Source of the DNA: the human T2T-CHM13v2.0 reference genome, Homo sapiens
DNA: 64,000 nucleotides
Direction: 5' to 3' (one strand)
NCBI RefSeq assembly: GCF_009914755.1
Contig: NC_060934.1
The stretch's first letter is position 1, and the number at the start of each line of letters is the position of its first letter. Position numbers and translations under genes: made by a program. This document shows positions 856-46,532 of the stretch, piece after piece. A model generated the notes under the pieces. That model was not told the DNA's origin and searched no databases. It saw only the letters and a list, made by a program, of their open reading frames with translations.

Positions 856-1852
856 GGCATTCTTATTCACAAAAACAGAGGTGGCATGTATAGGAATCCT
901 ACTATTAATTGGGATGTACTTCAAGATTACAACATGGCTGCCATTTACACATGTCAAAATCATAATTATTGTGAACCATTAATTACAAATCACAAAATTA
1001 CACTGTCCACAATTGTGAAGGGTCTTGGAATGTTTAAAGTAAACTCAATTTATGGTTTTTATCTCTCTGTGCCTCATTTTCCTTATCCATGAAACAAAGC
1101 TAATAATAGTACCTACTTTATAGTACTAAAAGGATTAAGAGTTAAAATATGTAAGGCACTGAGACAACACCTGGCACAGAGTGGGTACTAGGTAATGTTT
1201 GCAGTTCCTAGGAAAATGTCCAGTCCCCTCAAAGTCTGAAGGTTCCATTGGATCCAGATATCAGTCCCACTTGCTTTCACAGATCATAGCTGGTAAAAGG
1301 TGTATTTCAGAATCACAGCGTTCTCCAGATTCAACTTCAGCATGTTTTTCGTTTCCAGGTATAAACGTGCATAGTTTTCCTTTAACAACTATACTACTGA
1401 TTGAGTCAGTAAAGTCTTTAAAGCAGTAGTTCCTCACTTTTTGGCATCTGGGAACAGTTCGATTATCTGATGAAACTCCAGGCTCTTTCCCAGAAAAAAA
1501 GTACATGTAAAAAATTACATTCCATTTCAGCAGTTTCATAACCTCCCTCCAAGGTCATCCATGGACCCCAGATTAAGAATCAGTGTTTGCAGTACAGCTA
1601 TTATGGAAAACAGTATGGGGTGGTTCCTCAAAAAATTTAAAATAGAGCTACTATATGATTCAGCAAGCCCACTTCTGGATGCATATCCAAACGAATTGAA
1701 ATTGCTGTATTAAAGAGAGATTTGTACTCCCATGTTCATTGCAGCATTATTCACAATAGCCAAGATATTAAAGCAACCTATGTGTCCGTTGATGGAAGAG
1801 TGGGTAAAGAAAGTATGGTGTATATACACAACGGACTACTCTTCAGCCTTGA

Positions 1853-3272: not shown

Positions 3273-3305
3273 ATAGTTTTCCTTCAACAACTATACTGTT
3301 GATCG

Positions 3306-3619
<314 letters not shown>

Positions 3620-4699
3620 TAGTGAGCTAAGTACTTCCAATAAAAAGTTTTGCTGATGGTGAAGAAGATGAAGAAGGAGAATGAAGAAGAGAACAAGCAG
3701 AGGAAGAGAAGGAGTCATTCAAAATGGATAAAGGTAAGCAAACTGAAGGGATACTTTTACCTCTAAATGAGCCACAAGTATGCAATAGTGTTTTGCTACT
3801 GTGGAATACTGTGTAGCTATTATTAGCAACTCTGGAGGCAGTTTGAGCAACTGATTATATCTAAGGCCTTCTTTTAAACCTTAAACAGGTAAAATATTTT
3901 TATGGGGCTGTCCACAACTGTTCAATGAATCAGACATAAAAGAAATGCTAATTATGGGAACTGAGCTGTGAATTCTGAGTGACCCTAGAGACAAAATGCT
4001 TATCTGGTGGTCTTATGTTGCTGGACATTTATTAGAGTTTTGAGATTACATTAACTGATTTTCACCTTAAGTGCTCTACCTGGAGAAGCAGTAAAAGCTT
4101 CTGAAAAGGAATTATTTTAAAGAGGTAGTGACATTGGCCAGAAGATGTGTCTGCTGAATCAGGGGGCAGTGTGAGGAGAAGAACCCAAGTAGGGTGTGAT
4201 GGGCTTGCCACAGCCAAGAGCTGCCACTTTGATCAGGACTCACGAGGACCCTACTCATTCCTCTGTTCAAGAGTGGCCAATGCCTGAGACCAAAGAGGAT
4301 GGATGATGATACTTAGAACAAATATCATAGAATAAGGTCAAGGTCCCACTTACACTTCTGCTCTTTCATGGTCTCAGCTTGCATCCCTGCCTCTGAGCCA
4401 ATTATCTTTTCAGGAACTACAAGCTCTCACATTGTTTTGCCCCTGCCTACCTCTCCTCCCTGGTCCTCTATCACTCTCCCTTGCCTTACTCAACCCTCGT
4501 CCCCAAGGTCATCTCTCTGTTCCTGGACCATCCCCAGCTCATCACTGGCTCAGAGACTGTGTGGTTATGGTCCCTTCTCCCAGGACATTCCTTCTGCAGA
4601 CATTTGCATGGCTGATTCATTATTATTTTTAGACCTTAACTTGGCTAGCAACTTTCTGTCCCTTGCCTTGTCACTTTCTTCTATATCATCCTATTTATT

Positions 4700-6880: not shown

Positions 6881-7650
6881 TTAAAGAACTACTCTGTCTT
6901 CATGTTCCTTGGAGCCCCTAGTCAGTGTCTCACTGAGAGGAGGGTACAGCTTCAAACTCCCTCACCCTGAATTCCTTCTCACTGTGACATGAGGCCTCTC
7001 TCTATGCCAGGCTACCAAACACCAAGGTGTATTCCGTGGAGGAGATGGCACAGCAGCTGCTGTCAATATCCAAAGCATGGTGTCTTGAGACACTAAGAAC
7101 CCGTGCCTAATCAGTGCCTCCAGGAGGAGCATGCTGCTAATGCACATGGTAGAAGGTCCCTTGTCCTCAATTCCTATTGCCATTGTCCTGCTCAAGCACA
7201 CAGATAGAACAATGCTGTCTGCAAATCTCTGGTTATTACAGAATTTTTTCTTTGTTCTTTTTTTTTTTTTTTTTTGATAGGAAGAGACAACCCTTTCAAG
7301 GATGGCCCAACTTCAACCGTCTGGTGACACAAGAGATCTGGGGGCTCTTCTTGAAATAGACAGTTGGGGATTTTAAGATGATATATCAGCACTGGCTTGA
7401 GTGGGAAGAGGGTTGGGAGTGGGTAGGGGAAGAAGAGTAGGTTGTAAAGATAGAGCAACACTGGCAAAGCTAATGATTTTCACAGATCTGACTCCCTCGG
7501 TGGTTGGGGAGAGAAGTTTATTTATTGCATGTCTACTATGATCTGTTGTTTTCCTATAAACTGGGCATTAGGTTCTGACAACAGTGTGAAAATCTGATGT
7601 TTTACAGATGAGGAAATGAAGCTCACATGGCTAGTAAGAATCAAAACAGG

Positions 7651-9849
<2,199 letters not shown>

Positions 9850-10086
9850 AAGAATCAAAACAGGGATTCTATCTTCTTCACTCTACCTCCATGCCTGTGC
9901 AAATAATTCAGCTTATCCAGCTCTCATTCAGATTTCCATGAAGTAGATGCCCCTTTCTCAACAGAATATCTATTCAAGCTACAAAGCCTAATACAGTGCC
10001 TAGCACAGAGTAGAAGCTCAATAAAACAGGATGCATTAACAACTCTTAATGTGGTTTCTCAAACTCAGGTAGAAATCATCTGATCC

Positions 10087-19400: not shown

Positions 19401-19605
19401 GGAACCAATGGCAGGGACTGGTGAAGAGGGCTTGTCTTGAAGGGTATGGGCCTGTCCAAAGGAACCACAACAAAACCAGCAGTGGTAGACAGGAAGCGGA
19501 TCCAAGTCAGAGGGACAAGTACAGTCAAATATTCTCCAAGGGGACCCCCTGCAGGGCTCCTACTGGGGAAAGGAGAAAAAGCAAAGGTGTGTATCTCCTC
19601 TCCTT

Positions 19606-20505
<900 letters not shown>

Positions 20506-29490: not shown

Positions 29491-30071
29491 TGTTGGGGTG
29501 ATCAGACCCAACACCAGGCCATGGGGGCTATGAAGTCCAGCAGAGCCAAAGAAATGAGAAAAGACAAGAAAGTGGGACCAGGGGGCCAACACTAGTATGG
29601 AAGCTGCAAAGACCCCGAGCTCTGGGAGCCCATGCTATTTATTGGTGATCAAACAGAGAAACAGGTGGTGAGGTTGTGAGGGTTGAGAGAAAGTGATGCA
29701 TCAAGCGACTGAGCTGCAGCTGTGATGGTTTAGCATTTTCTTTGAAGCATATGGAACGTGTTCTGCTACTTGAGATAGTAAGAGTGCTAGAAGCAAGGAG
29801 TCAGCAAGTCTAGACACATTCCAGAGGCCACGAGGGGTTTTATGCCCTGAGCCCTGGATTCCATCCAAGCCATGAGGGGTTTTATGCCCTGGGCTTAGAT
29901 TATAGTGCAGCAGGGCAGACTTCCACCCTTTAGCACAGAGCTTGGTGTTCCAAAGGCCACGAGGGGTTTTAGACCCTGGACCCCGGACATGTTCCAAGAC
30001 TCTTTTACATTATGTCAGACACGCAAGCCCTGCCTCAGCTTCTCTCCCAACATTCAGCTTTTCTCCCAACA
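29491..30071 (-). mobile_element. ERVK solo LTR, LTR14B/C-like (HML-1)
   Basis: The minus strand begins tgttgggagaaaagctgaatgttgggagagaagctgaggcaggg; three internal gcca.gaggggtttta repeats; TG...CA termini. Confidence 0.75.
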
Positions 30072-31466
30072 CCGTGACCCCTCAGGCATGCCACTCTCGT
30101 TCTCTAAGCTGTTTCCATTTCAGTAAAGGGCAATTGCTAGCCTCAGCAACCTCTAAGGCTCACTACATAAAGACATCTATGATCTTTTCTAATCAACACA
30201 GCATCTTCCTCCTTTACTTCCTGTGGACCCTGTCCTGATACCTCAGTTTAGAAAATGACTTATGACAGTTAATGTGATCTTTCCACAAAGGAGGGTCCAT
30301 TACACCTGACCTTTGATTTAGGCAAAATAGTTTGGGGGATAAAGGAGCATGAAAGAGCTCAGGGGTTTTCACTGTTCTGTTCTTTCCAATTAACCTTAGA
30401 GCCTTCTCTCCTGCTCTGCCCTCTCCTGGGACCTCCCCATCCTGGAGCCCAGCCATAAGCTGTCTTGGTTCTTCAGTTGCTCAAGTGACTCACCTGATTG
30501 GCTGTGAGGTCCAAAGCCCACTAGGCCTTCCACAGGGCTGAAGCCAAGAAGACGGCCCCTTGAGTAACTTCTCCCTCATCATGCTGGTTCCCATCCCTGA
30601 AGAAGATGGGCCAAGACAGGCGAAAGAGGGCATGAGCTGAAGACACGCACTGAGCAGTTGCCTCTCATCTTGCTGTGAGTGGCTAGGCAGAGGTTAAGGT
30701 TTCCTGTCCCCACCCCCTCCCATTGCCCAATTGTCCACAAGGAAAACCACATAGCAAGTACTGGGTGGCTTTTGGAACCACAAACAGTCCGGATCAATTT
30801 GTTCTAAAGGCTCATTGAGCAACCACATTGCCCTCTTCCCTCTTGCCTGTCTGGCCATGAGGCTCCCTGCTGAGCAATTGCCTGCCCAGACAGGCAAGAA
30901 TGCCAGCTCCTCAATTATAAGGGTCTGGATGCATAAAGCATAGCTCGACTAATTGACCACATCCCACTTGCAATCACGACAAGACAACATGAATAGAATC
31001 ATAGTTTCCTCACTAATCATTTCAAGGTCTTTCTAAACACAATCTTTCTTCCAAATGTGTTATCTCACCACCAGCCTGAGATAGGTTGCTAGTGATAATA
31101 ATTAACTGATGGATGACAGGAAGCTAAAAACTATTCTTTAAACAAAAGAATATGATAGTATCATTTTAATAGCTCTGCTTAGCATTTTGATAAACAAACA
31201 ACATTTTTTGTTTGTGGATTCTGTAAAGATGTCTAAATCAATAATCTCAAAAAGACTTACATATTCTGTAACCAAGATATCAGAAAGTTAAAATCAAACA
31301 ATTCAATTACGAATGTTTATTGAGTATCCACCATTCACAAGGCACTGGGCTGTGGGTTGATACACAGATGTATAAAGCTCAATCCTTGACTTGGAGATGG
31401 TGAGTTGGTCACTCATCAGGGTTTGAGGACAGAAAAGTTTTGCAACCTACATAAAAATAAAGGAGT

Positions 31467-31756
31467 GACCTGGGCATGGTGGCTCATATCTGTAATCCCA
31501 GCACTTTGGGAGGCCAAGGCAGGAGGATTGCTTGAGGCCAGGAGTTTGAAACCAGCCTGGGCAACATAGCAAGACCTCATTCCTAAAGAAAAGACAAATT
31601 AGCCAGGCATGGTGGCATGCACTTGTAGTCCCAGCTACTCAGAAGGTAGAAAGATCACTTAAGCCCAGGCATTTGAGGCTGCAGTGACACATGATGGCAC
31701 CACTGCACTCCAGCCTGGGTGAAAGAGTAAGACCCTGTCTCAAAAAAATAAAATAA
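31467..31756 (+). mobile_element. AluJ-like
   Basis: Diverged dimer; outer TSD aaaaataa(a/g)ggagtg flanks both tandem Alus. Confidence 0.9.
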
Positions 31757-32062
31757 GGCCGGGCACAGGGCTCACACCTGTAATCCCAGCACTTTGGGAG
31801 GCTGAGGCAGGCAAATCACTTGAGGCCAGGAATTCAAGACCAGCCTGGCCAACATGTTGAAACCTCATCTCTACCAAAAAATACAAAAAAGTAGCTGTCC
31901 GTGGTGGTGAGCATCTGTAGTCCCAGCTACTTGGGAGGCTGAGGCACAAGAATTGCTTGAACCGGGAGGCAGAGGTTACAGTGAGCTGAGATTGTGCCTC
32001 TGCACTCCAGCCAGAGTGACAGAATGAGACTGTGTCTCAAAAATAAATAAATAAAATAAAAT
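31757..32062 (+). mobile_element. AluS-like inserted in the tail of the preceding Alu
   Basis: Full dimer with (A3-4T)n tail. Confidence 0.92.
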
Positions 32063-32279
32063 AAAAAATAAGGGAGTGGAAACTCAGCCAGATATGAACT
32101 TCCACTGAAATAAATATCTGAAATATGTAACTTGCTGGATTAGGCATATTATTGTGAACAGGACCCTCCCAAGTTCTAATTTGACAGTTGACAATTTGGC
32201 ATGGAGCATGGAGAGATACAGGACAGACATGAATGATGCTAGATTTGATAAAATGTCATGCCATCACAAAATAGTTTGG

Positions 32280-32750
32280 AGAGTATTCAGCCGCAAGTAA
32301 CAGAAAATGCACAAATAATGGCGTAACCAAGTATGAGACATTTTTCTTACTCATCAAGAATTCCAGAGTTAGACTGCTCATAGCTGGAGAAGTTGCCATG
32401 AAAATAATCAATAATTTCTACTATTTTCTTTCTATATTGTCCTCTGCTTGTAGATTTTGTCCTCATGTTTTCAAAATGGCTGCAGCATTCCAGGTGTCAT
32501 GTCCACATTGCAATAGGAAAAATGAGAGAAATACAAAGGACAAAAGTCTTCTCTTTTGTAAATGACTGCCTTTTTATTTGCAAAAAGAAGCCTTTCTCAG
32601 AAATCTACTTTCATCTCATTGACCAGAACAAATCACATGGCCACTCCCAACTGCAAAGGAACTGGGTATTTTTTACTTTGCAGGCTCCATAGTAAAGGAA
32701 GGCAAGGGAGAAGGCGATTTAAATAGGTTTCACTGGACCAATAGAATTTG
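32280..32750. mobile_element. Old MaLR LTR (MLT1-type)
   Basis: gcaagtaacagaaaa...caaaatggctgc...tctcattgaccagaac..atcacatggccactccc. Confidence 0.55.
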
Positions 32751-33375
32751 CCATGTATTTATCACATAATAATCACGCGGTATATGAAATTTACTTGATT
32801 TTACATTATAAAAAGCTATTTTTCTGCCCCACTGAATGTACAACTTGGCTCTACTTGCCTTTTTTAAATTAGGTTTTTAGATATAATTATGTTTTTAAGA
32901 ATATATTTTTAAGGAATAGTTGGGTAAAAATTTTGTAGTGATTATCTCTCAGTGGTGGAATTATACTTTTTTTAATTTATTTCTCTGTGCTATCTAGTTT
33001 TGTTCTTTTGTTTTTTTTTAATTTGCCATAACAAAAGTGCATTGTTGTATAATAAGAAAGCAAAAAAAAAATTTCACAAGAACGTTCATGACTCATTATG
33101 GTATATTGTCAAATGGAAAAGCAGTGTATACAATGCATTCCCAATTTTCAGAGAGTAGCAAAAGCCTAGAGCGTTGCCTCTGAATGCTGGGAATATATTA
33201 ATAGATTGCTTTCATTTTCTTTCTCTGCTTTTTGGTATTTTCCAAATTGATCACAGCAAAAAATATTAAAAACAAATAACAATCGTGGCCTATGTAGCTT
33301 TCCACCTGGACTTGGAGGAAATGAAGTCTTCCAAGCATAAACTGAAAAACAGAATTTGGGGAATAAAAATCACAC

Positions 33376-33670
33376 CAAAAAAAGAGAGAGAGAAGAAAGA
33401 AAGAGATAAAGAAAAAGAGGAAAGAAAGAAAGAGAGAGGGAGGGAGGGAAGGATGGAGGGAGGGAGGAAAAGGAAGGAAGAAAGGAAGAAAAAGAAAAGA
33501 AAGAGAGGGAGAAAAGAAAGAAAGAAAAAAGAAAGAGAAAGAAAGAAAGAAAAAGGAAAAGAAAAGAAAAGAAAGAAAGAGGAAGGGAGGGAAAGAAGGA
33601 GGGAAGGAAGGAGGAAGGAAGGAAGAAAGAAAAAAAGAAAGAAGAGAGAAAGAAAGAAAGAAAAAAGAAA
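33376..33670. repeat. GA-rich low-complexity purine tract (GAAA/GGAA)
   Basis: About 290 nt almost free of pyrimidines. Confidence 0.95.
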
Positions 33671-34194
33671 TTCTACTGAACAGGCCTTGTTTGTTAAGAC
33701 CAAAAGGAAAACAATAAAATGCTTCCCTCCTTGTTTCCTTTCTCTAAAAGCAGTTTCTGCTGAGAAACATTAAACCCCCTTAACATTCTTCAGGGGATTC
33801 TCAAGTCCAAGGCTAAGAGCCGGATAGAAAGAGGGTGTTTGTTCCTTTCTGGTGAGTCAGCTGTGAAACATGGCCCATTGTTTCAACAAATATGGCCACC
33901 AGAAGCAGTCCTCTCATGGCCTCTTCTCTTTCCAGGAGGCTGAGAGGCTGGGGAGCAAGAAGATGCCTCCTTTGCCTTTCAGACACACCATTCCACACAG
34001 AAATTCAGCAGTCATTTCATTTCTCTTATTTATTTTTCTCTTTCCAATAAACACAGCTTTCTCCCAAAAAGCAAGAGTCCATCTACAATTCTCCTGAATT
34101 TGCAGAGCTAAAGGCCATCATTTCAAAGGCCTAGAAAATGCACGTCTAGGTAAAGGGTTCTCCTACTGGATCAATTTCAAAAGCAGACAGTCCA

Positions 34195-34600
34195 TTCATT
34201 AGGCATTCATTCATTCATTCACTCATTCATCCATCCATCCACTCAGCAACAGTGCCTGGCTTGAGGATACAGTGAGAACAAGGCAAAGTAAACACGGCCT
34301 TCGGGAAGCTTATTTGGGGAGGCAGGGTGATAGGGAAAGACAGAGAATAAGAAAAAAGGAAGCACATCAATAAATAATTTTAGGAAGTGAGAGTGTGATT
34401 TAAAGGATATAAAGCAGGGTAAGGTTCTAGAGAGCCACAAAGGAGTAGGCGGGTGGTCAGGAAAGAGTCTTTGAGAAGGTGACATTTGAATTGAGACTTG
34501 AACGATGTGAAGGAGGGAGCCATGAGAAGTTCCGGCAGGGCACAGGCAGGCAACAGCAGAGTTCCAGATGGGGCAAGCGACAGGAGGTGAGCCCAGAAAG
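34195..34600 (-). mobile_element. L2 fragment with (CATT)n tail
   Basis: attcattcattc tail followed by ggtggtcaggaaag..gaaggtgacatttga..tgagacttgaa. Confidence 0.65.
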
Positions 34601-36282
34601 GCAGCACAAAAGCACAGGGGCTTCGAGGCTGCAGGAAGGAGCGTAGATTTAAGAACAAGTGGCTATCTACAGCGTAGTGGGGATCAAAAGCCAAAGGTTG
34701 CAAGCAGCTATGCACTCACGCACCAGCACCTGTTTTCCAGTTGTGTCAGAGAAGATTAAGGATGACAGTAAAAAGTTTCTGCTTTCTCACAGCTTCTAGT
34801 CTAGACCAGGAGACAAAAATAATGCCTAATGCAATTATGGAACAATTCGGGGCTAAGTCATGTGACTCTAATTTATGTAAACACATTTGGAGAAGGTGAA
34901 ATCAGTGAGAGCAGAAGCAGTCAGAGGATTGCATGGGGAGAGAGTGGGCTTGACCTAGAGGATAGGAAGTATTACATCAAGGATGGCAAAGGTTAGGCTG
35001 CACGCACCCACTCCTCCTTCCATGGCAAATACCTTTAACCATTCACAGCTCTCTTTCCCACTAACCTGGGCCCCGAAAACCTTCTCAAACTAGCATTCCA
35101 GGCAGATGCCCACCCCCTCCCCGCCCCGGCAGTTAATCAGAGTTAGCATAGGAAGAAAAAATGCAGCCTAAGCCAGACATAGTGAGTCAGGGAAATTGGG
35201 GAGAGAAAGTGCTTCCCAAATTGAGAGGCCTAAAGATCAAGTGGGAGTTATCTAACTGAAATGGCAGAGAGTGGTTCCTCACAGAATAGCTTGTGTGAAG
35301 GGCTGGAGGTAGGAAGGCCTGGGGCAAGTAATTCAATGTGGCTGGGGTTACAAGGGCAGGGGCAGAAGGGGCTGGAGAAACATGATCACAGAGGGCAGTG
35401 GAAGCAATGCAAAGAGTTTGAACTTCATGTTACGGAGATAGAGAAGCTTTGAAGGGCTTAAGCAGGAGAGAGGAGCGACCCTGGTTTCATTCCCAACATC
35501 ACTCTAGCTTCCCTGCCAACCAGGGAGCACATGAATTAGGAGACTGGTGCAGGAATCCAGGGCCTGGACTCGAGGGTGTCAGAGGGAATGGAGATAAGTA
35601 GGTGGCCTGAAGCTATTTAGGAGTTGAAATGGCTCAAAATTAGTGATTAGCTCTCAGGGTAGAGAAGAGAGTAAAGAATGAAGTCCAGCCCCTCAAGTGA
35701 GTCCACGGATACCTGCAATGACAAGGGAAAAATGAGAACTGACAAGCCCTACTGGTCCGTGCTTTCAGATCTAACACACCTGCAGGAAGCCAGCAGTGCC
35801 TACAGCTTCACAAGACAACGGCGTTCCCACTCTGCTGGGAGCTTGACATGCCAGGCATCCAGCCATTTCTCACTTCTGCTTTAGGTCTCAGGCAAACTAT
35901 GCAAAACCCTTTAAGTCCAGGGCATCTCGTTTTTCATGGCAAAGAGCAGTGACTCAACCTTTGAAAGCCACTTGACATTTTAATTTGCCAGTGCCCCACC
36001 TTGGCAGAGGATAATCCAAAGGTTCAGAGTGGCTGAGGGCGTTATTCAAGGTCACATAGCAAGCTGGAGGTGAGTAGAGACTTAGAATCAAACATTCCCA
36101 ATTTGTTACACTACTTGCTGCCCAGGTTCTGAATAAATCAAGCACCTTAAGCTATGTCACTGCCCTCCTTAGCCTATGTAAGCAATGGTGCCAAGAGTAG
36201 GAGAAAATGTGGTAGCCCCCATTCTCAGTGTTGTGTCAGTTCCTGTATAAGTCAATCCCTTCCTCTTAATAAAAGAATCTCT

Positions 36283-36572
36283 GGGTTTGTCTCTGGAGCA
36301 ATGCATGGGTGGGCAGAAATCCACATCTCTATACATCCCAGTTCCTCCCAGACTCTATGTCTATTCTTGACTAGCTTTGAATAACTTGAAGAAGGTGGAG
36401 TGGGGCGTGTTCTGATTCTGAAACATGACATTTGAATAGCACCTCTCTCCTGGGAGTGAGCCATAAAATGAGGTAGCACCTGGATCTCATCTTTCATCCT
36501 GGTTCCCCTCAGCAGGCACCTGAGCCCCTCCTGTGTGCCAGGCACATGTCAGCAATGCACGTCTGTTATCTA
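36283..36572 (+). repeat. Left arm of ~290-bp inverted repeat (partner 38344-38640)
   Basis: Manual alignment to the reverse complement of 38344-38640; about 174/214 identical over the inner part. Confidence 0.93.
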
Positions 36573-36736
36573 AACGCAATTTTGCTCAGGCCTCCGATAA
36601 GCACTTTATCTGAAAGAGGAAGAAAAGGTTTTTTAATGCTTGCCTTCTCCTGAACTCAACCCTGCTAAGTTGATCTCATGTGTGGTATGCAAATCCAGGG
36701 GCACTGAATTTCTGTGAGAAAGTGAGGGATGACAGC

Positions 36737-37016
36737 TGGGTGCGGTGGCTCACGCCTGTAATCCCAGCACTTTGGGAGGCCAAGGCAGGTGGATCACCTG
36801 AAGTCAGGAGTTCGAAACCAGCCTGGCCAATATGGTGAAACCCCATCTCTACTAAAAATACAAAAATTAGCCTGGCGTGGTGGCAGGCACCTGTAATCCC
36901 AGGTACTCAGGAGGCTGAGGCAGGAGAATCGCTTGAACCAGGAGGCAGAGATTGTAGTGAGCTAAGATCACGCCACTGCACTCCAGCCTGGGTGACAGAG
37001 TGAGACTCCGTCTCAA

Positions 37017-37047
<31 letters not shown>

Positions 37048-37052
37048 GAAAG
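36737..37052 (+). mobile_element. AluS(x/z)-like
   Basis: Full dimer, A/GAAA tail, TSD about agaaagtgag(g/t)gatga. Confidence 0.93.
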
Positions 37053-37528
37053 AAAGAAAGTGAGTGATGAGACATCTAGACACCTGGGGGGTGGGAAAGT
37101 GGGGAGTGGGACAGGGAAGCTGAAGCCTCAGAGGCTGGGAAGGCCCCAAATAGGAAATCCCCACTGTGGGTGGCCCCAAAAGATGGACAGCGAATATGAT
37201 GAGATGGACAATATAGGCCCTCCTCCTCCCCCACATCTGCGTTCATTGATTCAACATTTATTCAACAAACAGTAAATAAACACCTTCTGAAGTGTTCTGG
37301 GTACTGGGACTATAACAGTAAACTCAACAGACCAAAATCTGTTCTCCTGTAGTTAATATTGTAGTGGCGGAGACAGATGTTAACAAGGATATCAAATGTT
37401 AGGTAGTGAGACAGGATGGAGTGATAGCCTGAGTCAGGAAAGGCAGCCCACAGAGTGGGTGGTATGTGAGAGGGGAATAGGAGCGCTGTCAGGGGAGGCC
37501 AGGGAAGGTGTCAGGGAGAAGGTGAGTT

Positions 37529-37817
37529 GTTTTTTTGTGTGTGTTTGGCTGGGGGGTTGTTTCTTTGTTTTTTGAGACAGTCTCACTCCATCACCCAGGC
37601 TAGAGTGCAGTGGTGCCATCTCAGCTCAATGCAACCTCCCCCTCCCAGGTTCAGATGATGATTCTCGTGCCCCCGCCTCCCTTGTAGCTGGGACTACTAC
37701 AGGTGTGCGCCACCACACCCAGCTAATTTTTTGTTGCATTTTTAGTAGAGACGGGGTTTCTCCATGTTGGCCAGGCTGGCCTCGAATGTGCCTGGCCTCA
37801 AGTAATCCGTCTGCCTC
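37529..37817 (-). mobile_element. 5'-truncated Alu with atypical tail, inserted in an L2 fragment
   Basis: TSD gggagaaggtgagtt at 37514-37528 and 37818-37832. Confidence 0.9.
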
Positions 37818-38343
37818 GGGAGAAGGTGAGTTTTTATTAAGCACTGAGGGAAATGAGGGAGCTAGTACTGCAGATGCCTGGGGGAAGAGCCTTCCAGGCA
37901 GGGAAACAAAAAAAGCACAGTTCCTGGGATGGGAGCGTGCTTGGAGTATTAGAGAGAGAAACATCAAATCCACCGGTCAGGAGCAGAGTGGGCGGTGAGA
38001 GCAGGAGGGGCTGAGGTCAGAGTGGTGGCCAGCCAAAGAACAAAACTGATAAGCATTTGATTTTTTGTGTGTTGAGGGTAGAACAGGGTCAATCCATAGG
38101 GAAAAAGGGGCCAGTGGACTTCGAGGGGACATGTACATTACATCTGGTCTCTCTCATAACACTACAAATAAGGCAAGCGGGGCTCAGGAGGGGAAGAGGA
38201 ATTGTCCAAGATCACAAGGTTAGGGTGGTAGAAGCTGGAGTCGATCCTGCAACTGATAGATTAAGCTTCTGCTCATCCCACTACAGTCAGCTAAAAAGTG
38301 GGCAGTTGGGAAGGAGAAATAGAGTCAGACAAAGAAGTGTGTC

Positions 38344-38640
38344 TAGATAACAGATGTGCAGCGCTGATGCCGTGCCTGGCACACAGTAGGTACTCGGGTG
38401 CCTGCGGAGGGGAACCAAGATGAAAGATGAGATCCAGCTGCTACCTCACCCCACACTCGCTCCCAGGAGGGAGGTGCTGTACACATGTTGTGTTTTCAGA
38501 ATCTGAACATGCCAGATTCCACCTTGTTTGAGTTATTCAAAGCTACTCAAGGACAGGAGGAGAAGTAGCGTCAGGAGGATTGGGGATGTTTACAGATGCG
38601 GATCCCTGCACGCTCATCTATCTCTCTAGGGCCAAAGCCC
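38344..38640 (-). repeat. Right arm of ~290-bp inverted repeat
   Basis: See left arm. Confidence 0.93.
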
Positions 38641-38699
38641 AAGGAATAGCCCAACCCCCACATAATCGTAGGATCTGAGAGTGGATCACATATCCCTCT

Positions 38700-39242
38700 T
38701 TGCATGGGACAGGCCCAGAGTGCTCCTATTGTCTTGCAGAATTATTTAAGACCCTCTTTCATCTTGTAACACAACCCTGGTTTGGATGACAAATTATATA
38801 CTCACCCTACTGGGCCTCAGTTTATAGATAGAGGCCCTGTGTTACAAGGTCTGTGATATACTTCAAGATATTTCAGCTTAGATCGTAGGATGTTTATGTG
38901 TTTGTTTTAACCTATGCCCTAGGGTAAAACAAGGAGTAGTAACTCACCTAGATGTGATTAGTTAACATTTGAAGTACACTCATCAGGAATACACACTTCA
39001 GGCACTGGTTAGCATTTGAAATGATCTAATAAAAAATAGAGGTTACAACCAGCCCTTCGGTCAGAGACTTTATAAACAGTTATGATGAATGTTAGAAAGA
39101 ATTTTTCCTTGGTGGAATGAAATGATGAACACATGCAGATTGCTAGACATGTTCAGGCACTCCTACTCTTGCATTAACAGAATGTGAGAACATAGCCTAA
39201 TTCTGCAAGACAACAGGAGCTCACTGGGCCTGTCCCATGCAA
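38700..39242. repeat. 45-bp inverted repeat (38700-38744 / 39198-39242) enclosing nested hairpins
   Basis: ttgcatgggacaggcccagagtgctcctattgtcttgcagaatta versus taattctgcaagacaacaggagctcactgggcctgtcccatgcaa; 42/45 complementary. Confidence 0.93.
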
Positions 39243-39967
39243 TAGCCTGTACTCTCTGGAAAGCCACCCTGGGCTTATTAAGACTCGTTCACGGGAAGGT
39301 TTTATTGTCTGATTCCGGATAGGTTATCTGATTCCTACTGCTAAAATATTGTTACATTCATCTAAAGAGAAGCTTTTATGCAAGATGCTAAGGGAAGACC
39401 TCAAAGGATAGAGAGCTGAGTCTTCATCAAGCTTACATAATTATATGTTTGCATGTCTTTTTGCTAATAAGCAAAGGCACATGTGGTGGAATTCCAACTG
39501 AGACTTGTTTTCTCTGTGATCTTACCTGTAGATCCCGCCCGTATCTACTGAAGAACTAAAGAACTGTGAACAATCCAATTGTCTTGGCTCAGCTGACAAC
39601 ACCTGGCAAGGTGGCAAGGTCCCAGAGGAGAAGGAGTCACAGGCTGTGTCATACACACCAAAGCAAAGAAGATCTTGGGCAGCTGTACAAGTGTCCCTCA
39701 GGGAGAGAGCCCTGTGTACCCAGAGGGCATGGAAGCTTCAAGGAGAATTCTTGAGCCAGTGGCTGTGAAATGGGACAACCCAGCTGCATCCTGCCTGATG
39801 GTCCTCCCAAACCTGCAACTGCTGGGAGTGGGGTTATCTCAGAGGCTATCAGTGTGCGTACATTATGACCCTGGAGACACATACAGTCTTAAGCAAAAAA
39901 GGCTGGGAAGCACTGAATTGAGCATGGTAGGGTTCAAAATAGGAAGTTAACTTATTTATACCTCTTT

Positions 39968-42900
39968 TTATTCTTTTATTCTTTTTAATTTTTGTGGGTA
40001 CATATTAAGTGTATATATTTATGGAATTCATGAAATATTTTGATATAGGCATATATAATAGGTAATAATCCCATCAGGGTAAATCACATCACCTCATTTA
40101 TCCTTTCTTTTTTGTTACAAATAATCCAATTATACTCTTCTAGTTATTTTTTAAATGTACAATAAATTATTGTTGACTATGGTCACCCTGTTGTGTTATC
40201 AAACACTAGATATTATTTATTCTATCTAACTACATTTTCATACCCATTAACATCCCTACTTCCCCCCAACACACACACACCCTTTCCTGCCTCTGGTAAC
40301 CATCATTCTACTCTTTATCTTCATGAGTCCAATTGTTTTAATTTTTGTTAGCTTCCACAAACAAGTGAGAACATGCAATGTTTATCTTTCTGCACCTGGC
40401 TTATTTCACTTAACATAATAAACACCAGTTCCATCCATGTTGTTGCAAATGACAGGATCTCATTCTTTTTAATGGCTGAATAGTACTCCACTGTGTATAT
40501 GTACCACATTTTCTTTATCCATTCATATGTTGACGGACACTTAAGTTACTTCCAAATCTTGACTTTTGTGAATAGTGCTACAATAAACATGGGAGTGCAG
40601 ATATCTCTTCAACATACTAATTTCCTTTCTTTTGGGTTTATACCTAGCAGTGGGATTGCTGGATCATTTGGTAGTTCCAATTTTAGTTTTTTTTTTAGGA
40701 ACTTCCAAACTCTTCTCCATAGTAGTTGTCCTAGTTTACATTCACACCAACAGTGTACAAGGATTCTCTTTCCTCCACATCCTCACCAGAATTTCTTACT
40801 GCCTGTCTTTTGGAAAAAGCCATTATAACTGGGGTAAGATGACATTTCATTATAGTTTTGGTTTGCATTTCTGTCATGATCAATGATGCTGAGCATCTTT
40901 TCATGAACCTGTTTATTGTTGATATGTCTTCTTTTGAGAAATGTCTATTCAGATCTTTTGCGTATTTTTTAATCAGATTATTAGATTTTTTTCCTGTTGT
41001 GTTGTTTGAGCTCCTTATATATTCTGGTTATTAATCTCTTGTCAGATTGATAGCTTGCAAATGTCTTCTCCCATTCTGTGGATTGTCTCTTTACCTTGTT
41101 CACTGTTTCATTTGCTGTGCAAAAGCTTTTTAACTTGATGTGATCCCATTTGTCCATTTTTGCTTTGCTTGTCTATGCTTGAGGGACATTACTCAAGAAA
41201 TCTTTGCCCAGTCCAATGTCCTGGAAAGTGTCTCTAGTGTTTGCTTTTAGTAGTTTCATAGCTTGATGCATTCAATTTAAGCCTTTAATCCATTTTCTTT
41301 GATTTTTGTATATGGTGAGAGAGAGGGGTCTAGTTTCATCCTTCTGCACATGGATACCCAGTTTTTCTAGTAACATTTATTGATGAGACTGTCCTTTCTC
41401 CAATGTATGTTTTTGGCATCTTTGTTGAAAATGAGTTTACTGTAGATGCATGGATTTATTTCTGGATTCTCTGTTCTATTCCATTGGTCTGTGTGTCTGT
41501 TTTTATGCCAGTACCATGCTGTTTTGGTTACTATAGCTCTGTAGTATAATTTGAAAGTCAGATAATGTGATTCCTCCAGTTTTGTTCCTTTTGATCAGGA
41601 TAGCTTTAGTTATTCTGGGTCTTTTGTGGTTCCATATAAATTTCAGGGTTGTTTTTCTATTTCTGTGAAGAATTTCATTAGTATTTTGATAGGGATTGCA
41701 TTGAACCTGTAGATGTTTTGGGTAGTATAGACATTTTAACAATATCGATTCCTCCAATCCATAAACATCCTCAAGATATAAGTAGTTTACACACCACAAT
41801 TACAGTGTGATAATATTGTGCTTTTCTGTGTAGGTACTATTACCAGTGAGTTTTTTACTTCAGATGATTTCTTATTGCTCATTAATATCTTTCTTCTTTC
41901 AGATTGAAGAACTCTCTTTAGCATTTCTTGTAGGACAGGTCTGGTGTTGAAATCCCTCAGCTTTTGTTCGTCTTGGAAAGTCTGTATTTCTCCTTCATGT
42001 CTGAAGGATTCTTTTGTTGGAACAAAGTAAAAGTTTATCCTAAAGATAAAAGTTTTCTAGAATACAAGTTTTTCTCATTCAGCACTTTAAATATGTCATG
42101 CCACTCTCTCCTGGCCCATAAGGTTTTCACTGAGAAGTCTGCTGCCAGATATATTGGAGCTCCATTATATGTTATTTGTATCTTTTCTCTTGCTGCTTTT
42201 AGGGTCCCTTTTTATCCTTGTCCTTTGGGAGTTTAATTATTAAATGTCTTGAGGTAGTCTTATTTGGGTTAAATCTCCTTGGTATTCTACAATTTTCTTG
42301 TACTTGAATATTGATATTTTCCCCTAGGTTTGGGATGTTCTCTGTTATTGTCACAGGATCCTTAGGGTGTCACTTTTCCAGCTCAAAACCTCTGTGGTTG
42401 GTGGTGCTTTTGCCTGAGTTTTGCTCGGGCCCACTGGGCTCATTCCACCCACTCAGCCCAGCAGGCTGTGCTTGGGTCACACTATCAGCCCAGATCCCAC
42501 ACCTGCCAAGGGCAAGCCAAGCATGGAGCGGTGAGGAGTGTGTGAGTGAGTGCGGAGTTTGGCCACTGTGCACAGACAGGCATGCCAGCTGTGGCAGGGT
42601 AGGTAGCTCCAGGAGCCAGCACAGGCACTGGCTCCCTCCAAGGCTGCGGCTGGACCAGGCGTACCACAAGCAGCTTCCAATGTGGGCACTGGGAAATGTG
42701 GTGGCACTCAGAAGCTTGGAGATGCCAAGAACTGCAGAGCCCCAAAGAGGGTGTCACAGCCCTGGCTCGAGGAGCTCCTAAGTCTAGGCTCCCCAAAGGG
42801 CTACACCTCTTCTGTCCTCTCTTCTCTCCTCCTTGTTGACCCCAACATGGCAAGCAGGGGGCATGTATTTGACGTGTTTGTGTTACAGCTCTTTCAGTCC

Positions 42901-45900
42901 TGCCATCCAGTAGGTCCCAAGTTCTTATCCTGCATCCAGGGAGAATGGAGTACATAGACAACTGGAGGGTGAGCAAGGTGGAGAGGAGCTTCATTGAGTG
43001 ACAGAACAGCTCTCAGGAGACCCAAAATGGGTAGCTCCTTTCCACAGCCAGGTCATCCAGAGGAGTGTCCAGCTCTCAGCGGAGAGGAGATCCAGAGTGT
43101 GTAGCTCCTACCCACAGGCAGATCATCCCAATGAGTGTCTAGCTCTCAGCAGAGAGGAGACCAGGAGTGGGTAGCACATTTCCACAGGCAGGCTGTCCCT
43201 ACAAGCTGAGGAGATCCAACATAGGTAGCTCCTTTCCACAGTGGGTAGTCAGCCATCTGTGTGAGTCTGGCTGAGTCTTGGGTTTTTATGGGCTCAGAAG
43301 GGAGAAAGTGCATGCTGATTGGTCCATGGGCAGCCATGAATAGGCCTGGAAAAAGCATTGTAAGTTCTCACTCTGGGCCACGGACTCCATCTGGAGCTGG
43401 CAGCCCAGACCCCAGGCTTCAGGTGGTCCCTGGCTTGAAGGTGGAGTTTCACCAGGGACCCGCCCCTTTCTGCCCAGGAGCCTGTCTGCCTCCTGCCGCC
43501 ATCAACATTCCATCCACAGGGCCCAGGCTGTTTGTGTCAAGGGGTTCCTGCAGGCCCACGCCAAGCTGCCTGCAGCACCCCCCACCAGCCTCCTTCCCAT
43601 GTTCATCGCCACCCAGAGTCCAGTGGGGGCTGAGGCGGCAGGGGGTTGGCGTGTCGGTGCCGCCCCAAGTGCACGCACACCTGGCTGAGTCACGACAGTA
43701 CCTGGGCTCAGCCACAGCTTTGCTCTGCTCTGGAGTGGGAGCCAGGAGTGGAGAGAGGCCAGGGAGCAGGAGCAGACACTTCCGAGCCTGTGGGGAAAGA
43801 GCCCACAAGAGCGCAGGGATGCTCAGGTCGGGAGCCAGGGCTGGGCGGCAGCAGCGGTGCCCAGGAGCATGGGCTCCTGCTCCACCAATTCAGTAGGGGA
43901 CAAGGCTCTCACCTGTTCCCAGCTCCCACCAGCGCCACAGAATGCACAACCCCGCTGCACCTCCCCTGCTGCAAGTGGTGTCTTCATAACAGCTGCTCCA
44001 GACTGGCCACTGCTGCCATCATTATTATTCCTTTGAATAAACTTCCTACCTTTTTCTGTCTCCCTACCTTCTCTTTAAGATCAATAACTCTTAGATTTGC
44101 CCTTTTGAGGTTATTTTCTAGATCTTGTAGGCATGCTTCATTTTTTTTTTTGGTCTCTTCTAACTGTGTATTTTCAAATAGCCTGTCCTCAAGTTTACTC
44201 ATTCTTTCTTCTGCTTGACTAATTCTTCTGTTAAGAGACTCTGATGCATTCTTCAGTACGTAAATTGTATTTTCGGCTCCAGATTTCTGCTTTATTCTTT
44301 AACTATTTCAACTTATTTGTTAGACTTATCTGATGGGATTCTGAACTCCTTCTCTGTGTTAAATTGGATTTCATTGAGCCTCCTCAAAACAGCCATTTTG
44401 AACTCTATGCCTAAAAGGCCACATATCTCTGTCTCTCCAGAATTGGTCACGGGTGCCTTATTTATTAATAGTTCCTGTGGTGAGGTCATGTTTTCCTGGA
44501 TGGTCTTGATGCCTGTTGATGTTCATTGGTGTGTGGGCACTGAATATGTAAGTATTTATTATGTTCTTCATAGTCTGGGATTGTTTGTACCCATACTTCT
44601 TGGGAAGGCTTTCCAGGTATTTGAAGGGATTTGGGTGTTATGATCTAAGTCTTTGGTCACTGCAGCCATATCTGCTTTAGGGGGTGCTCCAAGCCCAGTA
44701 ATGCTGTGACTCTTGCAGATTCATAGAGATACTGACTTGGTGGTCTTGGGTAAGATCTGGAAGAATTTCCTAGATTAACAGGCAGAGACTCTTATTCTCT
44801 TCCCTACTTCCCCCAACAAACAGAGTCTCTCTCTCACTCTGTGCTGAGCTGCCTGGAGCCGGGGAAGGGGTTAGAGAAGAACCCCTGTGGCCACCACCAC
44901 TGGGACTGTGCTGGGCCAGACCCAAAGCCAAGCCAAGGACTGAGTCTCACTCAAGGCTTGCAGTCACCATTGCCTGACAAGTGCCTATGTTCACTCAAGG
45001 TGTTAGAGCTCTACAATTAGCAGGTAGCAAATCCAGCCAGCCTTGTGTCCTTTCCTTCAGGGCAATGAGATCCCCCTGGCACTGGATGGGTCCAGGGTTG
45101 CCATCTGGGAGCTAGGGCATAGAGTCAAGAATCTCAGGAATCTACCTGGCTCTCTATTATACTACAGCTGAGCTGACAACCAAGCCACATGACATAGTCC
45201 TTCCTGCTCTTTCCTCCCACTTCCACAAGCAGAGGAGTCTCTCTGCCACAGCCTGCACCACCCCAGGCCCACGATGAGGACTGCCTGGCTACTACTGGGT
45301 TTCACTCAAGGCCCAAGGGCTCTTCAGTCAGCTTGTGGTGAATTCTGCCAGGCCTGAGTCTCTCCCTTCAGGGCAGTGGGCTCCCCTCTGGCCCAAGGCA
45401 GGTCAAGAAATTCCATCCAGGAGCCAAAGCCTGGAATTGGGGATCCCAGGATCCCACTTGCTGCTCTATTTCTCTATAGCCAAGCTGGTAACCAAGTTGC
45501 AAGACAAAGTCCCCTTTAATCTTCCCTCTCCTTTCCTCACGCAGAAGGGGTCTTCCCCCCTAGAGCCACCACAGCTAGGGATGTGCTGGGTCACACCCGA
45601 AGCCAGCACAACTCTGATTCTCACCCAAGGGCCACGGCAAATACTTCCTGTCTACTACTACTGATTATTAAGGGCCCAAGGGCTCCTTAGTCAGCAAGTG
45701 ATGAATTCTGTCAGTACTGGGCCTTTCCCTTCAAGGCAATGGAGTCCCTTTTGGCCTAGGGTATGTTTAGAAATATTGTCCAGGAGCTGTGGCTAAGCTG
45801 GTATCCAAGTTGCAAGACAAAGTCCTCTTTACTCTCCCCTCTCTTCTCCTCAAACAGAAGGAAGAAGTACCTCCAAGAGTTGCAAGCTGTGCTGCCTGGG

Positions 45901-46532
45901 GTTGGGAGAGGGGTTATGCAAGCACTCCCTTGGCCTCCCGGCTTATATCCCACTAGGTCCCATGCACCCCAAGTCCACTGTCTCCATGGCAAGCACAGCA
46001 CTAGGGCTTGCCCAAGAATTATAGTCCGTGTGGCCTAGACTGCCTTTCAATTTTATTTAGAAGCCCAGAGCACTTTAGCCCATGATGGCAGGGCTTGCCA
46101 GAACTCAGCTTCTGGCCACTGCAATGGATGATTTCCCTGTGGTTAGGACTAGTCTAAATGCTCTCTCCATGGGTGTTGGTTGGGTTCTGCCTGGTGTTTC
46201 TTTCTGCTATGACAAGGCAGCAATGAGTTTCAATGCAAATTTCCACAATCACTGCATTCTCCCTCCAACAAGCACACAGATTCTCTCTCCGCACCACATG
46301 GTGGCTGCTGGAAGATTGGGCAGAGGTGGTGCAGGCAATTCAAGGCTGTCTTTCCTACCCTCTATAGTGTCTCCTTCCTTAATATGATATTAAAACCAGG
46401 TACTGTGAAAAATCACCTGATGTTTGGTTCTTATGAAGGTGTTTTTTTGTGTGGATAGTTGTTCAATTTGGTGTTCCTGTGTGGGTGGACAATTGCTGAA
46501 GATTTCTCTTCAGCCATCTTTCTCCACCTCCC
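39968..46532 (-). mobile_element. Near-full-length old L1 (L1MA2/3-like) with a large ORF2 deletion and a MER52 insertion
   Basis: 3'UTR and ORF2 end at 39.97-41.77 kb; jump to the inter-ORF/ORF1 region; ORF1-like peptide (LQDLENNLKRANLRVI); repetitive 5'UTR ending in ggaggtggagaaagatggctg; possible TSD acctcttt. Confidence 0.85.
42349..44021 (-). mobile_element. ERV1 solo LTR, MER52 family
   Basis: GC-rich 1.67-kb LTR; minus strand starts tgatggcagcagtggcc; internal cagctctcagc.gagaggagac repeats; perfect TSD ttat. Confidence 0.88.

What the first reader, a model, noticed from the sequence alone, without database searches (positions are those of the whole stretch)
36283..38640. Old ~290-bp inverted repeat of mostly unique DNA enclosing an inverted Alu pair
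Seen: 36283-36572 is the reverse complement of 38344-38640. By manual count it is about 81% identical over the inner ~210 bp (54/60 in the best block) and lower toward the outer end. Only a short L2/MIR-like motif (gtgcctggcacacagtagg) is repeat-derived, so this is not two independent TE copies. The right arm keeps several CpGs that are TpG/CpA in the left arm. The ~1.8-kb spacer holds a plus Alu (36737-37052) and a minus Alu (37529-37817), so a transcript could fold into a long stacked duplex ending ~60 nt from the 45-bp-stem domain. Inference: a local inverted duplication kept similar by gene conversion or by RNA-pairing selection, and a possible substrate for inversion, editing or back-splicing. 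Transition mismatches do not favour either strand (about 14 versus 11).
Basis: partly seen in the sequence, partly recalled or inferred. Interest (0 to 1): 0.72.

Follow-up and report, generated by a model that had tools for sequence, protein, structure and literature searches.

The report
Old inverted duplication upstream of GPAM
A 300-base piece of human DNA near the GPAM gene has one back-to-front copy 1.75 kb away, likely an ordinary copying accident from early primate evolution that is likely decaying without a function.

Summary
The inverted repeat is real: 36283-36581 pairs with 38335-38639 (234 of 307 columns, E 5e-55). Genome-wide searches return only these two copies, against 9,877 candidates for a control repeat. 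Independent MIR/L2-age copies are only about 55% alike, so the pair is a local duplication. Its size and spacing fit the 'Inverted Dup' class of the 1000 Genomes SV map (<1 kb, within 5 kb), attributed there to replication errors. A second two-copy example (93 nt, 97%, 2 kb apart) turned up in 200 kb of arbitrary human DNA. Non-CpG divergence (0.19) is about twice that of the spacer's plus Alu from other Alus, so the event likely predates that Alu. The proposed maintenance is unsupported: mismatches are evenly spread, G-U bias is 22:16 (p 0.42), duplex energy sits within the null, and transitions are not enriched. No annotated transcript crosses it; GPAM's farthest start lies 5.6 kb away and points away. 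An inverted Alu pair sits in 6.6% of background windows of the spacer's size. Orthologs, editing and population data were not available. Verdict: ordinary fossil, low interest.

The parts
36283..36581 (+). Left arm of the inverted duplication (299 nt)
   Evidence: only two copies found genome-wide
38335..38639 (-). Right arm (305 nt), 76% identical to the left arm in reverse complement
36521..36554 (+). Short MIR/L2-type tail fragment in the left arm (family name recalled)
   Evidence: profile from 67 other copies, E 0.02
38350..38395 (-). Same fragment in the right arm
   Evidence: E 1.6e-4
36735..37054 (+). Full-length Alu with A-rich tail; about 16-nt target-site duplication 36717-36732 / 37055-37070; likely younger than the arms
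37240..37851 (.). Ancient L2-like repeat (name recalled), interrupted by the minus Alu; strong match 37240-37462, weak 37809-37851
   Evidence: profile from 24 other copies, E 1.7e-13 and 0.025
37529..37817 (-). 5'-truncated Alu with exact 15-nt target-site duplication 37514-37528 / 37818-37832
38163..38223 (.). MIR-like core fragment in the spacer (name recalled)
   Evidence: E 2e-4
38700..39242 (.). Neighbouring, separate 45-bp inverted repeat (38700-38744 / 39198-39242, 42 of 45) around an old dispersed repeat; likely a younger, independent event

Best explanation
The two arms are a two-copy inverted repeat likely made in one step, when a replication fork or break-repair end likely switched template and copied about 300 bases of neighbouring DNA back-to-front 1.1-1.4 kb away, and they have likely been decaying neutrally since. 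Shown: two copies only, 76% identity, even spread of mismatches, a spacer of ordinary old repeats plus two Alu insertions with target-site duplications (1,109 nt without them). Inferred: the template-switch origin (by match to the Inverted Dup class), the date (about twice the age of the plus Alu; roughly 60-80 million years if AluS is taken as 30-40 million years old, a recalled figure, and if there was no conversion), and the lack of function. The plus Alu likely landed later, so the Alu pair did not trigger the event. Which arm is the original could not be told.
For: Two matches in 3.1 Gb for either arm and for a 31-mer with up to 3 mismatches, against 9,877 candidates for a control repeat. 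MIR-like pairs have median identity 55%, maximum 73% of 868 pairs; L2-like 55%, maximum 70% of 131 pairs, below the arms' 79% of ungapped columns. Sudmant 2015 (PMC4617611, passages): 54% of sequenced inversion sites were inverted duplications, nearly all <1 kb inserted within 5 kb, attributed to a process potentially involving replication errors. One more two-copy case in 20 arbitrary 10-kb stretches: L024 1980-2072 / 4136-4228, 90 of 93 identical. Neutral-looking divergence: change-point p 0.21, longest exact run 19 (p 0.49), wobble 22:16 (p 0.42); duplex -409 and -383 kcal/mol against -400 +/- 10; non-CpG transitions 21 of 44 against 57% in Alu pairs (p 0.22). Non-CpG K 0.187 +/- 0.029 against median 0.096 for the plus Alu versus 71 other Alus.
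Against: No ortholog was available, so neither the single-copy ancestral state nor the absence of conversion is shown. One 77-column block has 7 mismatches (p 0.035 uncorrected, width chosen after seeing the data; the other four widths p 0.15-0.25). No junction microhomology or donor could be read. The genome search is blind to L2-age repeats (1 candidate for an L2-like control). The background holds only one comparator and none as long as 300 nt. A second inverted repeat 60 nt away is not explained by chance alone.
Confidence: 0.68

Rival explanations
1. The arms are the scar of an old micro-inversion: a staggered break or double template switch duplicated one breakpoint and flipped the spacer. 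Also neutral today.
For: The geometry (repeat, spacer, inverted repeat) is the same as in the best explanation; staggered-break inversions leaving inverted duplications are established knowledge (recalled; one search listed only a Drosophila and an L1 paper, not read).
Against: No old repeat is seen broken across an arm with its rest in the other orientation. The neighbouring 45-bp repeat is not interleaved with this one, as a two-break scar would be.
Confidence: 0.15
2. The duplication is much older than it looks and the arms were kept similar by occasional gene conversion, or by selection on a duplicated regulatory element of GPAM.
For: Inner 113 columns differ at 14% against 26% for the outer 184; one 77-column block is 91% identical. 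It lies 5.6 kb upstream of GPAM's farthest annotated start.
Against: The gradient is not significant (p 0.21) and the longest exact run, 19 nt, is what chance gives (p 0.49). No RefSeq functional element overlaps it in the supplied annotation. No CpG island.
Confidence: 0.09
3. An unannotated transcript folds into a stacked duplex (arms outside, Alus inside) that is edited or promotes back-splicing, and pairing is under selection.
For: Folding 36250-38680 pairs 252 (plus) or 245 (minus) arm bases and about 200 Alu bases. On the plus strand the antisense Alu offers a pyrimidine tract and AG at 37580, and the only two perfect plus-strand donor consensus sites of the window lie in its target-site duplication (37519, 37823).
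Against: No transcript is annotated. No wobble bias, no extra duplex stability, no transition excess. No Rfam family in the arms at E <= 1. Any 76% inverted repeat folds in silico. Such donor sites occur 10 times per 400 kb of background strands.
Confidence: 0.04
4. The arms are long terminal inverted repeats of a rare old DNA transposon, or two copies of a very low-copy family.
For: Inverted ends with a spacer; the search misses very old families.
Against: Only two copies. The spacer is L2-like, MIR-like and Alu DNA, and the arms themselves hold a MIR/L2 tail. No convincing target-site duplication at the outer ends (flanks printed). No ORF over 112 codons.
Confidence: 0.04

Closest known systems
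'Inverted Dup' structural variants of the 1000 Genomes phase 3 map (Sudmant 2015, PMC4617611)
   Same: Stretch under 1 kb, inverted, within 5 kb of the other copy, not a retrotransposon.
   Different: Those are young polymorphisms seen against a reference; this pair is 24% diverged and presumably long fixed. The empty allele was not seen.
Short-range template switches in great apes (Walker 2021, PMC7954356)
   Same: Local reverse-complement copy attributed to a polymerase template switch.
   Different: Their copied lengths have median 12 and maximum 128 nt in the gold-standard set; this is about 300 nt across more than 1 kb.
Inverted segmental duplications that mediate recurrent inversions (InvFEST set, PMC13629690; npInv, PMC6044046)
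   Same: Inverted homology flanking a spacer.
   Different: Those are selected at 90% identity or more, and 1 kb or more for SDs; here 0.3 kb and 76%.
Palindromes under concerted evolution on X and Y (PMC8327919, PMC8981503; search listings only)
   Different: Arms there are over 99% identical; no conversion tract is detectable here.
Inverted Alu pairs as ADAR and back-splicing substrates (general knowledge)
   Same: An inverted Alu pair about 0.5 kb apart, 81% identical, predicted to pair.
   Different: Not inside any annotated transcript; such pairs occur in 6.6% of background windows of this size.

Membership tests
Inverted Dup class (Sudmant 2015) | Duplicated stretch under 1 kb, in inverted orientation | tested here: met
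   299 and 305 nt, opposite strands
Inverted Dup class (Sudmant 2015) | Copy within 5 kb of the other copy | tested here: met
   spacer 1,753 nt, 1,109 without Alus
Inverted Dup class (Sudmant 2015) | Not a product of retrotransposition or of a dispersed family | tested here: met
   two copies only (control); no A-tail at arm ends
Inverted Dup class (Sudmant 2015) | An allele or outgroup with a single copy and unflipped spacer | not testable with these tools
   no mammalian relatives held
Inverted Dup class (Sudmant 2015) | Junction signature of template switching, identifiable donor | tested here: inconclusive
   no significant extension of the MIR/L2 fragment past either inner junction; flanks unalike
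Dispersed transposon family / terminal inverted repeats | Many copies at similar divergence elsewhere | tested here: not met
   2 candidates against 9,877; search blind to L2-age families
Dispersed transposon family / terminal inverted repeats | Match to a curated Dfam or Repbase model | not testable with these tools
   no such library held
Inverted segmental duplication (NAHR inversion substrate) | At least 1 kb and at least 90% identity | tested here: not met
   0.3 kb, 76%, longest exact run 19 nt; definition as in PMC13629690
Inverted segmental duplication (NAHR inversion substrate) | Catalogued polymorphic inversion | tested here: inconclusive
   no matching coordinate string in held supplements of PMC13629690, PMC13721702, PMC4617611; hg38/hg19 offsets recalled; most catalogues not held
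Palindrome under concerted evolution | Conversion tracts or very high arm identity | tested here: not met
Palindrome under concerted evolution | Arms cluster by species in ortholog trees | not testable with these tools
   no orthologs held
Long dsRNA editing / circRNA-promoting element | Lies in a transcript | tested here: inconclusive
   none in the supplied RefSeq table; no expression data
Long dsRNA editing / circRNA-promoting element | Arms can pair | tested here: met
   predicted only
Long dsRNA editing / circRNA-promoting element | Sign of selection for pairing | tested here: not met
   two sequences give limited power
Long dsRNA editing / circRNA-promoting element | Editing sites or back-splice reads | not testable with these tools
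   no REDIportal or circRNA data held
Short-range template switch (Walker 2021) | Copied length up to about 128 nt | tested here: not met
   about 300 nt

The most novel reading that the evidence does not exclude
An unannotated plus-strand RNA, for example divergent transcription from GPAM's distal promoter, crosses the locus; the non-Alu arms clamp a duplex around a cryptic antisense-Alu exon (37581-37825, whose donor site was created by the Alu's target-site duplication), giving an edited or circular RNA, and the stretch is a hotspot that has made inverted duplications twice within 60 nt.
Probability: 0.04. Interest if true: 0.5.

Novelty: new member of a known kind. Interest (0 to 1): 0.12.

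Why it matters
Little, taken alone. It is a clean fossil of the commonest kind of small human inversion-type variant, showing that such copies can fix and stay readable for tens of millions of years. A genome-wide census of such two-copy inverted pairs, dated by arm divergence, would give a rate for this mutational process and an internal neutral clock. If it were transcribed and edited, it would be a non-Alu source of long self double-stranded RNA beside a lipid gene of medical interest, but nothing here shows that.

Tried and rejected
Multi-copy family: rejected for families of matching age (control 16); not excluded for L2-age repeats, but those cannot give 76%. BLAST of 35500-39600 against 200 kb of background, 6 repeat loci and the rest of the window gave no hit in the arms below E 0.18; this test also missed the spacer's L2 and MIR, so it is weak. 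Rfam: 17 matches at E <= 1 in 30000-46000, none in the arms, none at gathering score. Donor arm: by eye the L2-like fragment seemed to continue past the left inner junction, but profile scoring did not confirm it (left 14 of 60 and 41 of 60 shuffles as good; right 60 of 60 and 5 of 60). Alu hairpin as trigger: rejected, the plus Alu is about half as diverged as the arms and the two fold axes differ by about 160 nt. One event with the 45-bp stem: unlikely, 3 of 45 against 63 of 297 mismatches (Fisher p 0.024), though short arms are only found when well matched. The 45-bp stem as family terminal repeats: none of 6 other copies of the enclosed repeat matches it. Structure in the stem's loop: z 0.06. 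Coding: 6 ORFs of 61-112 codons, not pursued. Literature: ten searches listed no paper on this repeat; I read passages of five papers only. Two papers on divergence limits of recombination were not held. The background stayed at 200 kb, so the rate is loose (5 per Mb, 95% interval 0.13-28).

Full report
Observation. Self-comparison of the window finds 36283-36581 as the reverse complement of 38335-38639, 76.2% over 307 columns, E 5e-55. Realignment gives 234 matches, 63 mismatches (38 transitions, 25 transversions) and 10 gap columns; 200 shuffles score at most 38 against 307. The two Alus are present with target-site duplications, about 16 nt with one mismatch for the plus Alu and 15 nt exact for the minus Alu; without them the spacer is 1,109 nt.

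Copy number. Searching the 3.1-Gb genome with either arm gives 2 candidates, the arms themselves. A 31-nt core with up to 3 mismatches gives the same two sites. A multi-copy repeat from the window gives 9,877 candidates, and the old repeat at about 38850-39200 gives hits on 5 other chromosomes. The search is blind to the oldest repeats: an L2-like piece of the spacer found only itself. That gap does not rescue the two-insertions idea, because MIR-like copies in my sample are 55% alike at the median (maximum 73% of 868 pairs) and L2-like copies 55% (maximum 70% of 131 pairs), while the arms match at 234 of 297 ungapped columns. Profiles built from copies outside 35-40 kb find only a 35-45-nt MIR/L2-type tail inside the arms, plus L2-like and MIR-like DNA in the spacer. 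Family names for these repeats are recalled; no repeat library was held.

How common. In 20 arbitrary 10-kb stretches (200 kb), after masking anything that matched elsewhere in the sample, 2 inverted pairs of 40 bits or more remained within 5 kb. One (L033, 86 nt, 74%, 94 nt apart) looks like a small palindromic DNA transposon (recalled, not tested). The other (L024 1980-2072 / 4136-4228) is 90 of 93 identical, 2 kb apart, and two-copy genome-wide. By eye one copy runs on into an Alu whose first bases the other copy carries, which marks it as a local templated copy. One case gives 5 per Mb with a 95% interval of 0.13-28; none as long as 300 nt was seen. An inverted Alu pair lies inside 6.6% of 1,753-nt background windows, and 1.1% in this window.

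Age. K2P is 0.254 +/- 0.035, or 0.187 +/- 0.029 without CpG-affected columns. The plus Alu differs from 71 other full-length Alus by a median of 0.096 on the same measure; the two spacer Alus differ by 0.18. The arms are thus about twice as old as the plus Alu and about as old as, or older than, the minus Alu. With a recalled AluS age of 30-40 million years this is roughly 60-80 million years, assuming no conversion. The Alu pair therefore likely did not exist when the arms arose.

Tests of maintenance. Conversion should leave patches. The best change-point (26% outer, 14% inner) has p 0.21, the longest exact run is 19 nt (p 0.49), and four of five window widths are not significant; the fifth, 77 columns with 7 mismatches, has p 0.035 but was chosen from the data. 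Pairing selection should favour G-U on one strand. The count is 22 against 16 (p 0.42); duplex energies of -409 (plus) and -383 (minus) kcal/mol compare with -400 +/- 10 when mismatch direction is randomised; non-CpG transitions are 21 of 44, below the 57% of similarly diverged Alu pairs (p 0.22). CpG counts of 3 and 8 do not differ significantly (p 0.23). These are two-sequence tests of modest power; they fail to support maintenance and do not exclude weak or ancient conversion.

RNA. But the supplied RefSeq table lists no transcript here: GPAM's farthest start is at 30691 on the minus strand, 5.6 kb away and pointing away. Rfam has no match in the arms (17 matches at E <= 1 in 30-46 kb, 16 of them SRP or miRNA models over repeats, none at gathering score). 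There is no CpG island in 28-42 kb. In favour of the RNA reading, the minus Alu's target-site duplication carries a perfect plus-strand donor consensus, the only two such sites on that strand of the window, downstream of an antisense-Alu acceptor-like site at 37580; such donors occur 10 times in 400 kb of background strands.

Mechanism. Sudmant 2015 (PMC4617611; passages) reports that 54% of sequenced inversion sites were inverted duplications, nearly all under 1 kb and inserted within 5 kb of the other copy, not typically linked to retrotransposition, and ascribes the complexity to a process potentially involving replication errors. This pair fits that size, spacing and orientation. It is longer than the short-range template switches of Walker 2021 (PMC7954356; passages; median 12, maximum 128 nt). 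I commit to a single templated inverted copy followed by neutral decay (0.68). A breakpoint scar with a flipped spacer (0.15) cannot be told apart without orthologs. The donor arm could not be identified.

Inversion substrate. Catalogues of recombination-mediated inversions select repeats of 90% identity or more (PMC13629690, PMC6044046; passages). At 76% with a 19-nt longest run, recurrent inversion is unlikely (inference; two papers on homology limits were not held). Coordinate strings for the locus were absent from the held supplements of three papers apart from unrelated numbers (1 of 43 parts of one table read). The hg38 and hg19 offsets are recalled, the held supplement of PMC4617611 is a single file, and other catalogues were not seen, so this is weak evidence.

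Neighbour. The 45-bp stem (42 of 45) encloses part of an old dispersed repeat, but none of 6 other copies shares the arms, its loop folds no better than shuffles (z 0.06), and it is less diverged than the main pair (p 0.024). It is likely a separate, younger event. Why two such events sit 60 nt apart is unexplained.

Verdict. Observation confirmed; interpretation partly supported. New member of a known kind. Ten literature searches listed nothing on this repeat. Interest 0.12.

Noticed in passing
window 38700-39242: 45-bp inverted repeat (42 of 45) around an old dispersed repeat (about 38850-39205, 62-91% local matches on 5 other chromosomes); the arms are not shared by 6 other copies. An 11-bp perfect inverted repeat at 38763-38848 inside it is at background frequency (8 in the window, 33 in 200 kb).
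   Followed up: partly
L024 1980-2072 and 4136-4228 (G000:C1, near 220.00 Mb): Younger two-copy inverted duplication, 90 of 93 identical, 2 kb apart; one copy runs into the start of an Alu. What looks like a coding exon lies between the copies.
   Followed up: partly
window 37514-37528 and 37818-37832: The minus Alu's target-site duplication doubled a perfect plus-strand splice-donor consensus; with the acceptor-like site at 37580 it outlines a possible 245-nt cryptic exon if a plus-strand RNA exists.
   Followed up: partly
window 19557-19605 and 19918-19969: About 50-nt direct repeat (90%) flanking the Alu at 19600-19920, long for a target-site duplication.
   Followed up: no
window 43012-43241 and 44882-45861: Degenerate tandem and direct repeats, the first overlapping the RefSeq enhancer at 43123-43623; possibly an old LTR-type element.
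   Followed up: no
window 7509-7712: Self-complementary stretch of about 200 nt (74%) directly before the young repeat at 7709-9863.
   Followed up: no
window 1371-1401 and 3273-3303: 31-nt direct repeat (90%) 1.9 kb apart with no other match in the sample.
   Followed up: no
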